Part shown: piece by piece, positions 57,001 to 63,000 of the stretch
Layout of the letters: each line of letters opens with the position of its first letter
Position numbering within the stretch: the first letter of the stretch is position 1
From: Mobula birostris
Lineage: Eukaryota
Direction: 5' to 3'
NCBI RefSeq assembly: GCF_030028105.1
Contig: NC_092401.1
Span: 26,340,399-26,404,398, forward strand
DNA: 64,000 bases
Program-made: the position numbers

Positions 57001-60000
57001 ATAGGCTGGGGTTGTTTTCCCTGGAGTGGAGGGGACTGATGGGAGTAGATGTAGAAATTCAGACCAGCATAAGGTGGCGTGCTTTGGAAAGAAACAGTAC
57101 AGTTAATGTCAGGATCCTTAACAGTGTTGATACATAGAGGGATATTGGGGTGCAAGTCCATAGCTCCCTGAACTAGAGAGAATAGTGAAGAAGACATACA
57201 GCATTCTTGCCTTCATTGGTCAGGGCACGAGTCAGTAAAGCCATGGTGCAGCTGTGGAAACCTTCGGTTAGGCCACACGTGGAGTGCTATGTGCCATTCT
57301 CGTCACCCCACTACAGGATGGATTTGGAAGCTTTGGAAAGGGTGCTGAGGGAGTTTACTAGGACGCTGCATAGATGGCTGCATGGTATTGTAGCGGCTAG
57401 TGTAACACTTTACAGCACAAGTGATTGGGGGTTCAGCCTACGTGGGTTTCCTTCAGGTGCTCTGGTTTCCTCCCATGTTCCAAAGACATATAGGTTAGGG
57501 TTAGTAAGTTGTGGGCACACTATATTAGCAATTCAGCAATTTCCAACCCCAGCTTCTCTTAGTGACCCTTGACAGAATGTTTGCTTGGTGTAGGGCAGGA
57601 TGAGGCCTGTGTGGCCAAGCTAGTCAATGCTCAACGTTGTGGGTTATAGGCACTGAGACATGCCGTCCACCAGGAGCCTCACCTGGCCAGCCCCTTCGTA
57701 CACAATGGGTGGCTGTAGGCCAGTGAATGGAGAGCCCACTCCCATGCAACACAACTCTGAGGCCATTAGTTCATGAACAAAGTGAAGACGATCAGAGACG
57801 TGTTCATGGCTGTTCACATCCGTAGCCGCATGGCTGATCGCACTGCTGCCGAGGGGGATTCCTGGTGACGTGATTTTATACAAAACACGGAATCACATTG
57901 CCAGGGATTACCAATCGGTGACAAGTGATGCATCGTCTGTTCGAAGGTACCTCCGACTGATAAAGTCTCTTCAGGTGGCTAGAACTCTGACCAGAAGCAG
58001 TTCATCCGGTTATTCTCACACTGGCATTCTGGTTAATATCGGTGGCACGGTGGAGTGGTAGTTAGTGACTCACTTTACAGTGCCAGTGACACAGGTTCAA
58101 TTTCCGCCATAGTCTGTAAGGTGTTTGTACGTTCCCTCTGGGACCACGTAGCTGCTCTGGTTTCCTCATGCATTCGGGTTGGTAAGTTGAGGGCACGCAG
58201 TGTGGCGGCCTGCCTCTCACACGTACTCGGACTGTTAGTTGTTGACATACCAGAATCAGGTTTACTATCACTGATGTATGTCGTGGAATCTGTTGTTTTG
58301 TGAAGGCAATGCAGGGCAATACATCAAATACAGTATAAATTAGACATTGAAATCGTATTTATGAGTATGCAATATGTGTATACAGATAACAGGTATTTAT
58401 TTCAATAAGTAGTGTATAAAGATAGTGTTGCACATAGAAGTTTCTTGAAGTTCCAGCATCTGCAGATTTCCTCGTGTTTGAGATAGTGTTGCTGTATGTT
58501 CTCATGTTTCAATGTATATGTGACAAATATTGTTGCTCTATCTCGCCTCATATCTAATATTTAAGTCCCATCTCATTCACAGCAGGTAACTGATAGACTG
58601 GACGTGATGGAATTGTTTCCATTGTCAGGAGGCTAAGTGAACAGGTCACAGTTTGAACTGTACGGAGCCCATCAATGCCATTCAGCCTGCTGATGGCTTG
58701 GGGCAGAGAGGTGAGGTTCAGCAATAATAACCGTGCTCAGGAAGGTATATACTCAAAGGAGAGAGGAAGCAGAATTTCTGGCAGATAACATAACGCCACG
58801 CAATAAGAGCGGTGAGTTTTCCCCATAAAAATGGACTGAATGGAGGATAAGATTAGCTTTACTTGTCACATGTACATTGAACCATGGAAGCACAGTGAAA
58901 TGCATCTTATGGATCAAGTCATGTCAGCGAGAATTGTGCGGGGCACCCGTGAGTGTTGCTACACTTCCATCACCAATGTAGCGTGCCCACCCTAACCTGT
59001 ATGTCTTTGGAATGCGGAAAGAAACTGGAGCGGCTGTAGGAAACCCACTCGGTCATGGGGAGAGTGTATCACCCCTTACCGACAGCAGCCGGAATTGAAC
59101 CCTGGTCAATCATCTCTGGTGTGGTGAGGTGATGCACTAACTGCTGCACTACCGTCCCACCCCTACAGACTCTCACATAGTCACACAGTGTGTACATCCA
59201 TGCCCTGTCAGTCACCCACAGCATTGCGGGTGGTAGAGAGAATTGACATGGGGATTAGCCAATAATCAAGAGTCTGTCTGGGAATAAATTGTTGCTTTAT
59301 GAAGTTAATAAGTTGTTGCAAAGGAGATAAAGGGGGACTTTTTATGCACTATAACCTGGAATATGTTTATTGAAAGGATAGTAAAAGAAAATTTGGTGTC
59401 TTTTCAAAGCATTTCTATTTACAAATTAAATATTGGCTGAGCTGTGTAGGTAGGACAGAAGAAGTGAGGTTGACATTGATTGGACATTCCCTCCAAATGA
59501 CCAGCAGAGACAAGAGGGCTGAGCATATTTCTTCTGAGCTGACTGATTGTGATTCTGGGAGTTCGTGGCTGGATGGAGTTGAGAGATTGGTAGTCTATTG
59601 ATAGATACTTTTCTGATCCCAAAGGAAATTACAGTGTCACAGAAGCATTACAAGTGCACAGATATACATGTATACACATATTAGAAGAGAAGTAAGAAAG
59701 AATAAAAAAATAAGTTACCTCAACCAGTCTAACAGGAGGGGGTCATCACTTCCCAGGCTACAGGTTGACTCATTATGGAGCCTAATGGCCAATAGTAAGA
59801 ATGACCTCCTATAGCGCTCTTTGGAGCTGCACAGTTGTGTTTGAAAGATTGGACAGAGGCTGATTAAGACAAGTCCATATCTGAACTTCGGGCAAGGTAG
59901 AGAGAAAGCTGATCAGCATTTGGCCAATGCTCAGATCACAGAAACTTCAAGAGGCCCAGGAGCATCTAACCTGATGGACTTCCTCAAAGAGGGGAGGCTT

Positions 60001-63000
60001 CTGGTACCTGGTTTATGCTTCAGGGCTCAGTGACAGCACACTTATATAGCCAAGGGTATGCTTTATGGGAATGCTGTTTTGGTGCTGGAATGTATGGCGT
60101 CACTTGTGGGCTGCCCCCAGCACGTGTTAGTTGTTAATGCAAACAATGCATTTTCTTGAATGTTTTGGTGTATGCTTAATAAACTTCAATCTTCAATGTT
60201 GAACCAACACAATGCCTTGAGGTCAAAGGGACAGAAGCCCTACGATTCCATGGCAACAGTGGAGTGATGAGGGGACACTGAAGAACCAGAGAGTGCTATT
60301 CCACATTTAATGCAAGGAACAAAAGACTAGCCCCAGGCCACTCACATTCTGAGGAAAACCCAGGGAGGAACACAGCAGCATGGGGTGGGGGAGAGATGTG
60401 GTGTCAGAACGGATGAGTCACGGGAACAGCTGCACACATCTGCATGGTTCAGAAAGAACTCCTTGGCTGTGGCATTGAAAATGATTCTTCAGGGATGTGG
60501 TGTACTCCCGTCATCAGATGGACCAGGATCCGTGGCCGCAGTCCTGCCTCTGTCTCTCCCAGTCCAGCCATCAGGGGTACAGGGCTTAGCTAGTTTGTGA
60601 ACAGAGCTGTGTTCGTCCCCTTGTTCACAGTGGCTAAGTTCCGCACCTCTGGGGCAAAAGTCAACGGGAAGAGAAGCTCAATGCTTGGCTGGTGAAACAT
60701 CACCTGATACCGAGGTACTTCATTGTTGTACACAGTGGGAATCATCTTCAAAACAACCAGCCATGGCCTCTTCTGGTTGGCTGCTGGTGACTAGCGATGT
60801 TCCTCAGGACCCACTACTTTTCATATTAAATGGATGACAGAATTGATGGCTTTGTGGCCATGCTTGCAGAAGATACCAAGATCGGTGAAGGGGCAGGTAG
60901 GAAGTGCATCACCTCACTCTGGCATCCCTACTCATTTCCTTTCTCTCATGGTCCACTGTCCTCTCCTATCAGCATCCTCCTTCTTCAACCCTTTATCTTT
61001 CCCACCTATCACCTTCCAGCTTATCAGCTCTCTTACCCATCCACGCACCTTCCCCCTCACCTGGTCTCACCTATCATCTACCAGCTTCTCCTCCTTCCCT
61101 TCCCTCCCAACTTCTTATTCTGGTTCCTCCCCATTCCTTTCCAGTCCTCCTGAAGGGTTTCGCTCCAAGATATGAACGGTGCATTCCTTTCCACAGATGC
61201 TACCTGACCTGCTGCGTTCCTCCAGCGTTGGAGGAGAAGTAGGTAGTTTGCAGAAGGGCTTAGACAGATTAGGAGAATAGGCAAAGAAGTGACAGATGGA
61301 TTACAGTGTAGGGAAGTGTATAGTCTGCCACTTTGGTAGAAGGAATAATGACACGGACTATTTTCTAAACGGGGAGCAAATTCAGAATCAAGGGTGCAAA
61401 AGGACTTGCATGATTGAGTCAGTAATAAGGAAGTCATTTTTTTTAAGTTTTAAATTTTAAAATTTTTATTTGATTTACTTGGATGCTGCCACGGTAACAT
61501 TGCAGCGAGTGTAATGCAGTTGGGGTTCATTTCCTGCCGCTGTCCGTAAGGAATCTGTAAGATCTCTCTGTGACTGCATGGGTTTTCTCAGGTGCTCTAG
61601 TTTCTGCCCACGTTCCAAAGACATGTGGTTAGGGTCAGTAAATCGTGGGCATGCCACGTTGGCACCGGAAGCATGCTGACACGGCAGGCAGCCTCCAGCA
61701 CTTTCGTTGCATAGGCACAAACGCACACTTCATTGTACGTTTCGATGTACATGCGACAAGTAAAGCACATCTTAAATCTTAAACGCAAGAGGTTCTGCAG
61801 ATGCCGAAAATCCAGAGCAACACATGCAAAATGCTGGAGGAATTCAGCAGGTCAGGCAGTGTCTTAAAATCACTATCGCCATTATTAATGCTATTTTTAA
61901 TTCCAGGTGTATTGAACTTCACGCTAGTGGATCAGGTCTGCTGTGTTGCTGATCTGGTAATTTAACCAGGTCAAGTAGAATGGAGCAACATTAAGCAAAA
62001 TTGTAGAGGCTGAACATCAGGACTAGACAGAGACAGTCCAGTGAGTATCTGAAGGGTTAAACTTGATGCTGAAAGGCCTGATGTCAATTTTCACTATTTT
62101 CTATTTTTACTTTTATTACATTTAACACAGCTGTTTGAAGAACTTACATCAGCTTGTGTGGTATAAATAGGGCTTAGTAATCAGATAGGGAGAGGTCTTT
62201 TTCCTTAATCTGATGTACCTCTGTGCTGCTTATTGTTGTGTCTGGCGAGACACCAGCAGTATAATTCTGAGTCATTTCTCTCTCTGGGTTTCCTGTTTGT
62301 CCTGTGGATTTTCCTATAATTTGCTTCCTGCCTCCACTTCATCCAGCCACTGTGGTTCATTTAAATCCCACAATCCAAGACTGAGCCAAGCTGAACTGCG
62401 AGTTTGTATCCATTGACCTTCTCGACCAGCTGATGCAACTCTATTCCCTCACGCCCGCTGTCAATGAAAAGGCATGGGTTCTTATAGTAGGGAGGGATTG
62501 ACAGGGAGCTCCCTCTAGAGAGGCTGGGAAGTATGGATCAGTGTTCCACGAAGTATTGAGTACAGGAACTGGGATGTTATGTTGAAGTTGTGTAAGATGT
62601 TGGTCAGACCAAATTTGCAGTTTTGTTTGCTGTTCTGGTCGTAAGACTGAGAGAGTACAGAGAAAATGTAGAAGGACGTTGCTGAGTGCTGAACACCTGA
62701 GTTATCGTGGAAGGTTTGGACTTTATTCCCTGGAGCGTAGGAGAATGAGAGAAGATATAGAGTCATGGAACACTACAGAATGGAGACAAACCCTTTGGAC
62801 CATAAACTCTGTGCTGAACAATTAATCGACCTAGACCCTTGCCTTCATCAACTTTCCTGGCCTGGTAACTTCCTTGAAAGACTCTAAAAGATTGATTAGA
62901 CACGACTCACCATGCACAAAACCATGCTGACTATCCCTAATCAGATTACAGAGGAGGAGCCGTTTGCTGTCTTGAGGCACGTTAGGATGGATAAATCCCC

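What the first reader, a model, noticed from the sequence alone, without database searches (positions are those of the whole stretch)
57847..60665. miR-23~miR-27 microRNA cluster among transposon debris, invisible to the ORF track
Seen: two well-formed hairpins on the same strand with exact mature miR-23 and miR-27 sequences, paired star arms, basal stems and CNNC motifs about 17 nt downstream. Known: vertebrate miR-23, miR-27 and miR-24 are co-transcribed in that order from one pri-miRNA. Inference: these are the only clearly functional genes in the window, and the upstream 57 kb is intergenic DNA or intron of a non-coding host gene.
Basis: partly seen in the sequence, partly recalled or inferred. 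Interest (0 to 1): 0.75.

Follow-up and report, generated by a model that had tools for sequence, protein, structure and literature searches.

The report
Ordinary miR-23 and miR-27 gene pair
These are the well-known vertebrate microRNA genes mir-23 and mir-27, intact and in their usual order, sitting in repeat-rich DNA of what looks like a ray or shark genome; real, but ordinary.

Summary
Rfam covariance models find exactly two families above gathering score in the 64 kb: mir-23 at 57847-57920 (+, 66.8 bits, cut-off 52) and mir-27 at 60572-60651 (+, 78.6 bits, cut-off 48.5). Both fold as long hairpins (z -4.35 and -3.29). Their 3' arms carry 21-mers identical to published miR-23b-3p and miR-27a primers. 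CNNC motifs lie 18-19 nt past the 3' arms.

No mir-24 is present in the 3,349 nt left downstream. The hairpins are 2,651 nt apart, whereas in human and mouse all three hairpins fit in about 800 bp. The surrounding DNA is transposon-rich: 35% self-matching, with 35 CR1-like LINE fragments and a Tc1 remnant. The LINE's closest named relatives are rays, skates and sharks, so I do not take the window for human.

No cellular coding exon was detectable among 791 open frames. That test is weak, so 'intergenic or non-coding host' is not shown; an intron of a coding host such as AOPEP is equally open. Verdict: a known, deeply conserved microRNA cluster, of low novelty.

The parts
57847..57920 (+). mir-23 precursor hairpin
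   Evidence: Rfam RF00642, 66.8 bits against gathering 52, full model 1-73. Minus strand scores only 28.3 bits. Fold of 57830-57940 gives -43.6 kcal/mol, z -4.35.
57892..57912 (+). miR-23-3p mature-type sequence (23b-type 21-mer) on the 3' arm
   Evidence: Unique in the window. Identical to the core of the hsa-/mmu-miR-23b-3p primers, PMC11698795 Table 1. Paired to 57855-57874 in the MFE structure.
57856..57876 (+). inferred 5' (star) arm of mir-23
   Evidence: Inference from the pair table, assuming 2-nt 3' overhangs. No read data.
57931..57937 (+). two overlapping CNNC motifs downstream of mir-23
   Evidence: CATC at +19 and CGTC at +22 from base 57912.
57801..58200 (.). small CpG-retaining patch on and just 3' of mir-23
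   Evidence: The only 400-nt window of 636 with GC >= 0.5 and CpG o/e >= 0.6 (o/e 0.72; 18 CpG against mean 5.6, sd 3.3). Its meaning is not established.
57921..60571 (+). 2,651-nt spacer between the hairpins, partly interspersed repeat
   Evidence: Within-window repeat copies at 58073-58149, 58849-59102, 59597-59844 and 60063-60203. No LINE-ORF fragment inside it. No Rfam hit.
60572..60651 (+). mir-27 precursor hairpin
   Evidence: Rfam RF00644, 78.6 bits against gathering 48.5, full model 1-80. Minus strand scores 35.5 bits. Fold of 60555-60670 gives -45.9 kcal/mol, z -3.29.
60624..60644 (+). miR-27-3p mature-type sequence (27a-type 21-mer) on the 3' arm
   Evidence: Unique in the window. 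Identical to the Hsa-/Mmu-mir-27a primer and one base different from the mir-27b primer, PMC6962379 Table 1. Paired to 60580-60601.
60581..60603 (+). inferred 5' (star) arm of mir-27
   Evidence: Inference from the pair table, assuming 2-nt 3' overhangs. Its first 11 bases match the Rfam consensus letter for letter (alignment).
60662..60665 (+). CNNC motif downstream of mir-27
   Evidence: CAAC at +18 from base 60644.
56997..57572 (+). CR1-like LINE fragment flanking mir-23 upstream
   Evidence: tblastn with LINE proteins covers 56997-57407. ORF 57189-57569 aligns to the window's own LINE ORF at 43% over 56 aa, E 6e-13.
60766..60898 (+). CR1-like LINE fragment 115 nt downstream of mir-27
   Evidence: tblastn with LINE proteins. 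Further fragments at 61197-61478, 62519-62768 and 63068-63774 (+) and 62840-62944 (-).

Best explanation
These are two genuine canonical microRNA genes, the orthologues of vertebrate mir-23 and mir-27. They lie 2.65 kb apart on the + strand of a cartilaginous-fish genome whose repeats are most like those of rays and skates. They are the first two members of the ancient mir-23~mir-27~mir-24 cluster.

Expected mechanism (established for these families in mammals, inferred here):
- RNA polymerase II makes a long primary transcript.
- Drosha/DGCR8 cuts each hairpin about one helical turn above the basal junction, helped by the downstream CNNC motif.
- The roughly 57-64-nt pre-miRNAs are exported and diced.
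- The 3' arms (57892-57912 and 60624-60644) are loaded into Argonaute as guides and repress mRNAs through their seeds.

The cluster has been stretched by transposon insertions around and between two short unique islands that hold the hairpins. The third member, mir-24, would lie beyond the window's end if it is retained.

Shown here: family membership by sequence and structure, strand, order, exact mature sequences, flanking motifs and the repeat context. Inferred: expression, processing, arm choice, co-transcription and the host transcript.
For: - Rfam matches above gathering for both families, full length, on one strand. The opposite strands fall below threshold.
- Significant hairpin folds.
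- Each 3' arm carries a 21-mer identical to primers used for mammalian miR-23b-3p and miR-27a. Meanwhile transposon copies within the window differ from one another by about 10-30%. That argues for strong purifying selection.
- The 5' arms stay paired, and the cmscan match lines for mir-23 mark several stem pairs kept as pairs though the letters differ from the consensus.
- CNNC lies at +18/+19.
- Neither hairpin has any copy elsewhere in the window, while 35% of the window does. LINE fragments stop at about 57572 and restart at 60766.
- The order 23 -> 27 on one strand matches the mammalian clusters. The 2.65 kb spacing is well inside the 50 kb used as the limit of a miRNA polycistron (preprint 10.1101/2021.09.01.458616).
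- Lineage: of the 19 organism-named proteins among the 35 best relatives of the window's LINE ORF, 17 are elasmobranch, 13 from rays, skates or sawfish and 4 from sharks. The best is 91% identity over 66% of the query, to Hypanus sabinus. The other 2 carry bacterial labels on contigs under 2 kb.
Against: - No small-RNA data, so processing and expression are untested.
- No mir-24 in the window, so the three-gene cluster is incomplete as seen.
- The spacing is several times the mammalian one, so a single transcript is less certain.
- Hairpin stability does not distinguish them from repeat palindromes in the same window. The minus strand of the mir-27 hairpin folds about as well (z -3.66).
- No orthologous locus from another cartilaginous fish could be compared.
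Confidence: 0.9

Rival explanations
1. The hairpins are real miRNA genes, but the window is part of an intron, probably the last one, of a protein-coding host gene on the + strand. AOPEP would be the candidate, as for mammalian miR-23b/27b/24-1. In that case the window is neither intergenic DNA nor a non-coding host.
For: - In human and mouse the miR-23b/27b/24-1 cluster lies in the last intron of AOPEP (PMC11514471; PMC12330670).
- PMC11848845 lists 23~aopep, 24~aopep and 27~aopep as arising at the vertebrate node.
- The miR-23 here is the 23b-type 21-mer.
- A 57-kb stretch without exons is unremarkable for an intron in a repeat-rich genome.
Against: - The miR-27 here is the 27a-type, not the 27b-type.
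- No Peptidase_M1 or other cellular domain was found in 567 + strand open frames of 33 aa or more. The test has little power for short exons.
- PMC11848845 says host genes were lost more often than the miRNAs after the genome duplications. It does not list aopep~Mir-23 among the four structures conserved in all five jawed-vertebrate branches.
- LINE fragments show no antisense bias: 18 on + and 17 on -. The sample is small.
Confidence: 0.3
2. The hairpins are real, but transposon insertions have uncoupled them. mir-23 and mir-27 would then be made from separate primary transcripts rather than one polycistron.
For: - The 2,651-nt spacer contains repeat insertions.
- All three hairpins fit in about 800 bp in human and mouse.
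- Alternative start sites and alternative miRNA-bearing exons already uncouple members in mammals (PMC11514471).
Against: - 2.65 kb is short for a polymerase II transcript and far below the 50 kb polycistron limit used by MirGeneDB authors.
- No promoter evidence was obtained. The only CpG-retaining patch lies at mir-23, not before mir-27.
Confidence: 0.15
3. The hairpins are decaying relics or chance look-alikes that no longer yield miRNAs.
For: No expression data. mir-24 was not found. The locus is swamped by transposons.
Against: - Rfam E-values of 8.6e-13 and 3.9e-16.
- 21 of 21 identity of both mature arms to mammalian sequences, with intact pairing and CNNC motifs.
- A relic drifting like the neighbouring repeats (10-30% divergence between copies) would not keep this.
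Confidence: 0.03

Closest known systems
Mammalian miR-23b~27b~24-1 cluster (last intron of AOPEP)
   Same: Same families, same strand, same order 23 -> 27. The mature miR-23 21-mer is identical to the miR-23b-3p primer core.
   Different: The miR-27 here is the 27a-type, one base away from 27b. The spacer is 2,651 nt, against about 800 bp for all three hairpins. No mir-24 within 3,349 nt downstream. No AOPEP exon detected (weak test).
Mammalian miR-23a~27a~24-2 cluster (intergenic)
   Same: Same families and order. The mature miR-27 21-mer is identical to the mir-27a primer. No coding host was seen here either (PMC12330670).
   Different: The miR-23 here is the form used as the miR-23b primer. 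That miR-23a differs from it by one base is recalled, not taken from a call. Spacing and repeat load differ as above.
Mir-23 + Mir-24 + Mir-27 cluster of the jawed-vertebrate ancestor (MirGeneDB-based studies, cluster 'C18')
   Same: The cluster is treated as ancestral to vertebrates, with paralogues from the genome duplications. Cartilaginous fishes (Callorhinchus milii, Scyliorhinus torazame) are among the curated or analysed species.
   Different: Which paralogue this locus is cannot be told from 64 kb, because the mature sequences are a 23b-type / 27a-type mix.

Membership tests
mir-23 (Rfam RF00642) | Covariance-model score at or above the curated gathering score | tested here: met
   66.8 bits against 52, full model 1-73, + strand.
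mir-23 (Rfam RF00642) | Conserved mature sequence and seed on the 3' arm of a stable hairpin | tested here: met
   57892-57912 is identical to the miR-23b-3p primer core and paired in the MFE hairpin.
mir-23 (Rfam RF00642) | Precise Drosha/Dicer processing (reads with homogeneous 5' ends, 2-nt offset star reads) | not testable with these tools
   No small-RNA data at hand.
mir-27 (Rfam RF00644) | Covariance-model score at or above the curated gathering score | tested here: met
   78.6 bits against 48.5, full model 1-80, + strand.
mir-27 (Rfam RF00644) | Conserved mature sequence and seed on the 3' arm of a stable hairpin | tested here: met
   60624-60644 is identical to the mir-27a primer and paired in the MFE hairpin.
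mir-27 (Rfam RF00644) | Precise Drosha/Dicer processing | not testable with these tools
   No small-RNA data at hand.
mir-23~27~24 cluster | mir-23 then mir-27 on the same strand, within polycistron distance | tested here: met
   Both on +, 2,651 nt apart. The limit used in the literature is 50 kb.
mir-23~27~24 cluster | mir-24 downstream of mir-27 | tested here: inconclusive
   No mir-24 hit at E <= 1 in 54000-64000, none at gathering in the whole window, none at E <= 0.1 in 1-54000. The window ends 3,349 nt after mir-27.
mir-23~27~24 cluster | Co-transcription as one primary transcript | not testable with these tools
   Needs RNA data.
AOPEP-hosted paralogue (23b/27b/24-1 type) | Lies in an intron of AOPEP, with exons on the same strand nearby | tested here: inconclusive
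   No Peptidase_M1 or related domain in 567 + strand open frames of 33 aa or more. Power is low for short exons, and the intron may exceed the window.
AOPEP-hosted paralogue (23b/27b/24-1 type) | 27b-type mature miR-27 | tested here: not met
   The window has the 27a-type base at position 19. Whether this position marks the paralogue outside mammals is not known to me.

The most novel reading that the evidence does not exclude
The locus may not be a plain orthologue of either mammalian cluster. It could be a paralogue from the early vertebrate genome duplications that mammals lack. Alternatively it could be an ancestral-type mosaic, given the 23b-type miR-23 alongside the 27a-type miR-27. In either case transposon insertions would have stretched it to more than 6 kb and begun to uncouple its members. 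The small CpG-retaining patch at 57801-58200 would then mark an internal, unmethylated start region beside mir-23.
Probability: 0.2. Interest if true: 0.35.

Novelty: already known. Interest (0 to 1): 0.15.

Why it matters
The main value is annotation. It anchors two deeply conserved regulatory genes in an otherwise featureless, repeat-filled stretch, and it shows that ORF-based scans miss the only conserved genes there. It also gives a small worked example of how microRNA hairpins persist as short unique islands while transposons inflate the cluster around them. Here one spacer is 2.65 kb, against about 800 bp for the whole three-gene cluster in human and mouse. It does not open a new question: the families, their order and their presence in cartilaginous fishes are established.

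Tried and rejected
- mir-24: sought with Rfam at gathering over 64 kb, at E <= 1 over 54000-64000 and at E <= 0.1 over 1-54000. Not found.
- A third hairpin at 57580-57700, about 200 nt upstream of mir-23, ranked high in the fold scan. Its z-score is +0.20, with 104 of 200 shuffles as good. Rejected.
- Host-gene exons: 438 stop-to-stop frames of 55 aa or more on both strands and 353 + strand frames of 33-54 aa were scanned against Pfam.
  - Strong hits were transposon domains only: RVT_1, a GDSL esterase of LINE ORF1, HTH_SB, DDE_3 and HTH_Tnp_Tc3_2.
  - The other hits had E 3e-4 to 0.009, about what 791 queries give by chance.
  - Minus-strand frames under 55 aa were not scanned.
- One hit, LDLRAD1_C at E 5.1e-5, could not be located. 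33 of the 144 frames of that batch were tried singly without finding it.
- tRNA scan for SINE heads: 0 genes.
- The Atlas look-up of the LINE ORF gave only 'Chordata'.
- Literature searches for the cluster in sharks or rays gave no paper describing this locus. One preprint and one paper treat the cluster in general terms.
- LINE orientation as a sign of transcription: 18 fragments on + and 17 on -, so uninformative.
- No orthologous locus could be fetched. The contig collection open to me holds bacteria and archaea only and was not used.
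Full report
**What is there.** An Rfam scan of the whole 64,000-base window on both strands, at the curated gathering thresholds, returns exactly two matches. One is mir-23 (RF00642) at 57847-57920 on the + strand: 66.8 bits against a cut-off of 52, E 8.6e-13. The other is mir-27 (RF00644) at 60572-60651 on the + strand: 78.6 bits against 48.5, E 3.9e-16. Both cover their models end to end. The reverse strands of the same hairpins score 28.3 and 35.5 bits, below threshold, so the genes are on the + strand.

Folded with about 20 nt of flank, each stretch forms one long hairpin. 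The energies are -43.6 kcal/mol (z -4.35, 0 of 200 shuffles as good) and -45.9 kcal/mol (z -3.29, 1 of 200).

**The 'exact mature sequence' claim.** No miRBase copy was at hand, so I checked the two 21-mers against the literature.
- The first occurs in 22 papers; of the 8 listed, 5 name miR-23b in the title. In Table 1 of PMC11698795 it is the miRNA part of the mmu-miR-23b-3p primer. It is also the first 21 bases of the 23-base hsa-miR-23b-3p part, whose last base differs from the window (passage read).
- The second occurs in 44 papers. It equals the Hsa- and Mmu-mir-27a primers in Table 1 of PMC6962379, which differ by one base from that table's mir-27b primers (passage read).

So the pair is a 23b-type miR-23 with a 27a-type miR-27.

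**Processing signals.** In the minimum-free-energy structures the 3' arms pair with 57855-57874 and 60580-60601. About ten further base pairs of lower stem lie below them. Assuming 2-nt overhangs, the star arms would be about 57856-57876 and 60581-60603; this is inference. CNNC lies at +19 and +22 after the mir-23 21-mer and at +18 after the mir-27 21-mer. That would be +17 to +18 if the mature forms are 22 nt long. By my arithmetic from the base counts, such motifs at these offsets in both hairpins have a chance of roughly 0.02, so they are supportive but weak.

**A control.** I folded every 100-nt window at 10-nt steps on both strands: 12,782 windows, mean -18.5, sd 6.9 kcal/mol. The two hairpins rank 10th and 12th among non-overlapping loci. 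On the + strand of 56-64 kb they rank 1st and 2nd. The more stable hairpins elsewhere are copies of a palindromic interspersed repeat. Hairpin stability therefore does not make the case. The combined sequence and structure match and the exact mature arms do.

**What is missing.** mir-24, the third member in mammals, was not found:
- at E <= 1 in 54000-64000;
- at gathering in the whole window;
- at E <= 0.1 in 1-54000.

The window ends 3,349 nt after mir-27. Since mir-23 and mir-27 are themselves 2,651 nt apart, mir-24 may simply lie beyond the end. A further hairpin about 200 nt upstream of mir-23 (57580-57700) is not significant: z +0.20.

**Surroundings.**
- The window has no N, 41-46% G+C, and CpG at 0.21-0.50 of expectation. 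That pattern fits a methylated vertebrate genome.
- 35% of the window matches another part of itself. The two hairpins do not.
- Using the first 40 records read from the stored file of relatives of the window's own LINE ORF as probes, 35 LINE fragments appear, 18 on + and 17 on -, about 12 kb in all.
- These fragments include 56997-57407 just before mir-23. ORF 57189-57569 aligns to the LINE ORF at E 6e-13. Another fragment, 60766-60898, starts 115 nt after mir-27.
- The spacer holds other repeat pieces at 58073-58149, 58849-59102, 59597-59844 and 60063-60203.
- The hairpins thus sit on two unique islands of roughly half a kilobase each.
- Pfam on 438 stop-to-stop frames of 55 aa or more, both strands, found convincing hits only to transposon domains: RVT_1, a GDSL-type esterase of LINE ORF1, HTH_SB, DDE_3 and HTH_Tnp_Tc3_2.
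- A further 353 + strand frames of 33-54 aa gave nothing beyond chance.
- One marginal hit (LDLRAD1_C, E 5.1e-5, minus strand) could not be located among the 33 of 144 frames I retested singly.

**Source organism.** The 292-aa LINE ORF at 26308-27183 has 542 relatives at E <= 1e-20. Among the 35 best, 19 carry an organism name.
- 13 are from rays, skates or sawfish: Hypanus sabinus (5), Leucoraja erinacea (4), Mobula hypostoma (2) and Pristis pectinata (2).
- 4 are from sharks: Chiloscyllium punctatum (2), Stegostoma tigrinum and Mustelus asterias.
- 2 bear bacterial names on contigs under 2 kb.

The best identity is 91% over 66% of the query, to Hypanus sabinus. I therefore read the window as elasmobranch, probably batoid, and not as human. 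The 2.65 kb spacing, against about 800 bp for the whole cluster in human, and the little-decayed CR1-type LINE point the same way. I did not try to name the species or the record.

**How it most likely works.** By analogy with the mammalian genes (established knowledge; inferred here), a polymerase II transcript carries the hairpins. The Microprocessor cuts them at the base of the upper stem, assisted by the CNNC motif, and Dicer removes the loop. The 3' arms then guide Argonaute to target mRNAs through their seeds. Perfect conservation of both guide strands between a cartilaginous fish and mammals argues for continued function. So do intact pairing and the fact that the surrounding repeats differ 10-30% between copies. 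I put 0.9 on 'genuine, functional mir-23 and mir-27 genes of the conserved cluster'.

**What remains open.**
- First, the host.
[quoted passage not shown] PMC11848845 dates the aopep-hosted arrangement to the vertebrate ancestor (passages read).
  - Against it: the same paper reports frequent loss of hosts after the genome duplications and does not count this arrangement among those kept in all five jawed-vertebrate branches.
  - My exon search cannot exclude a coding host, so I give that about 0.3.
- Second, co-transcription over 2.65 kb of repeat-laden spacer is likely but unproven. I give separate transcripts about 0.15.
- Third, the paralogue identity cannot be assigned from a 23b-type / 27a-type mix. 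That miR-23a differs from miR-23b by one base is recalled, not taken from a call.
- The only 400-nt window of 636 with G+C >= 0.5 and CpG o/e >= 0.6 is 57801-58200, on and just after mir-23. It could reflect constraint or local hypomethylation. I did not resolve this.

**Limits of this work.**
- No eukaryotic genome collection was available, so no orthologous locus was compared.
Those of PMC11848845 and of preprint 10.1101/2021.09.01.458616 may list the Mir-23/24/27 paralogues and hosts in Callorhinchus and Scyliorhinus.
- Searches for a description of the cluster in sharks or rays found none in the held library. MirGeneDB does curate cartilaginous fishes (PMC8728216, passage read).

**Verdict.** The wider inferences about the cluster and its host are only partly supported. 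The finding is an ordinary instance of a textbook conserved microRNA cluster: useful for annotation and of low novelty.

Noticed in passing
window 23701-27258 (+): Largely complete but frame-broken CR1-type LINE. It has a GDSL-esterase ORF1 piece at 23701-24147 (E 3.1e-12), RVT_1 in two frames at 25454-26050 and 26011-26304, and a 292-aa C-terminal ORF at 26308-27183. Its closest named relatives are in rays and skates.
   Followed up: partly
window 33586-34629 (-): Decayed Tc1/mariner (Sleeping-Beauty-like) transposase split over several frames: HTH_SB at 34348-34629 (E 6.5e-11) and DDE_3 at 33651-33929 (E 1e-4). There is also an HTH_Tnp_Tc3_2 hit in the same batch.
   Followed up: partly
window 49765-49875, 11625-11735, 53945-54055 (related pieces at 23174-23266 and 61523-61859): An interspersed repeat family whose copies form near-perfect hairpins far more stable than the miRNA hairpins: -57.6 to -60.2 kcal/mol, z -6.4 to -9.5. 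One related copy lies about 0.9 kb downstream of mir-27. Whether they yield small RNAs is unknown.
   Followed up: partly
window 30733-30799 and 8771-8830 (both strands): Sub-threshold Rfam matches to mir-9256 (36-43 bits against gathering 80) that score on both strands, so probably palindromic repeat pieces rather than genes.
   Followed up: no
window 37779-38340: Minisatellite of TG/TC-rich units (periods 16, 32, 36 and 62; up to 33 copies; 59-73% matches). It produces long Cys/Leu/Ser-rich open frames on the + strand.
   Followed up: no
window 12301-13400: The most CpG-dense stretch of the window, up to 20 CpG per 400 nt against a mean of 5.6. It overlaps ORF 12512-12889 (+), whose tail looks to me like a hAT-type transposase C-terminus. 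Pfam gave no hit at E <= 0.01, so this is my reading only.
   Followed up: partly
window, minus strand, one of the 144 frames between 25453 and 63903: A single Pfam hit to LDLRAD1_C (E 5.1e-5) that I could not locate. 33 of the 144 frames retested singly were negative. It could be a stray exon-like piece or noise.
   Followed up: partly
hits P0003, P0005, P0006, P0007: Public records in which this LINE's reverse transcriptase appears under unrelated labels. Two are 'reverse transcriptase family protein' of Proteus mirabilis and Klebsiella pneumoniae, on contigs under 2 kb. Two are ray and shark gene models named P-selectin glycoprotein ligand 1 and adenylate kinase 2. These are likely contamination and transposon-contaminated gene models.
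   Followed up: no
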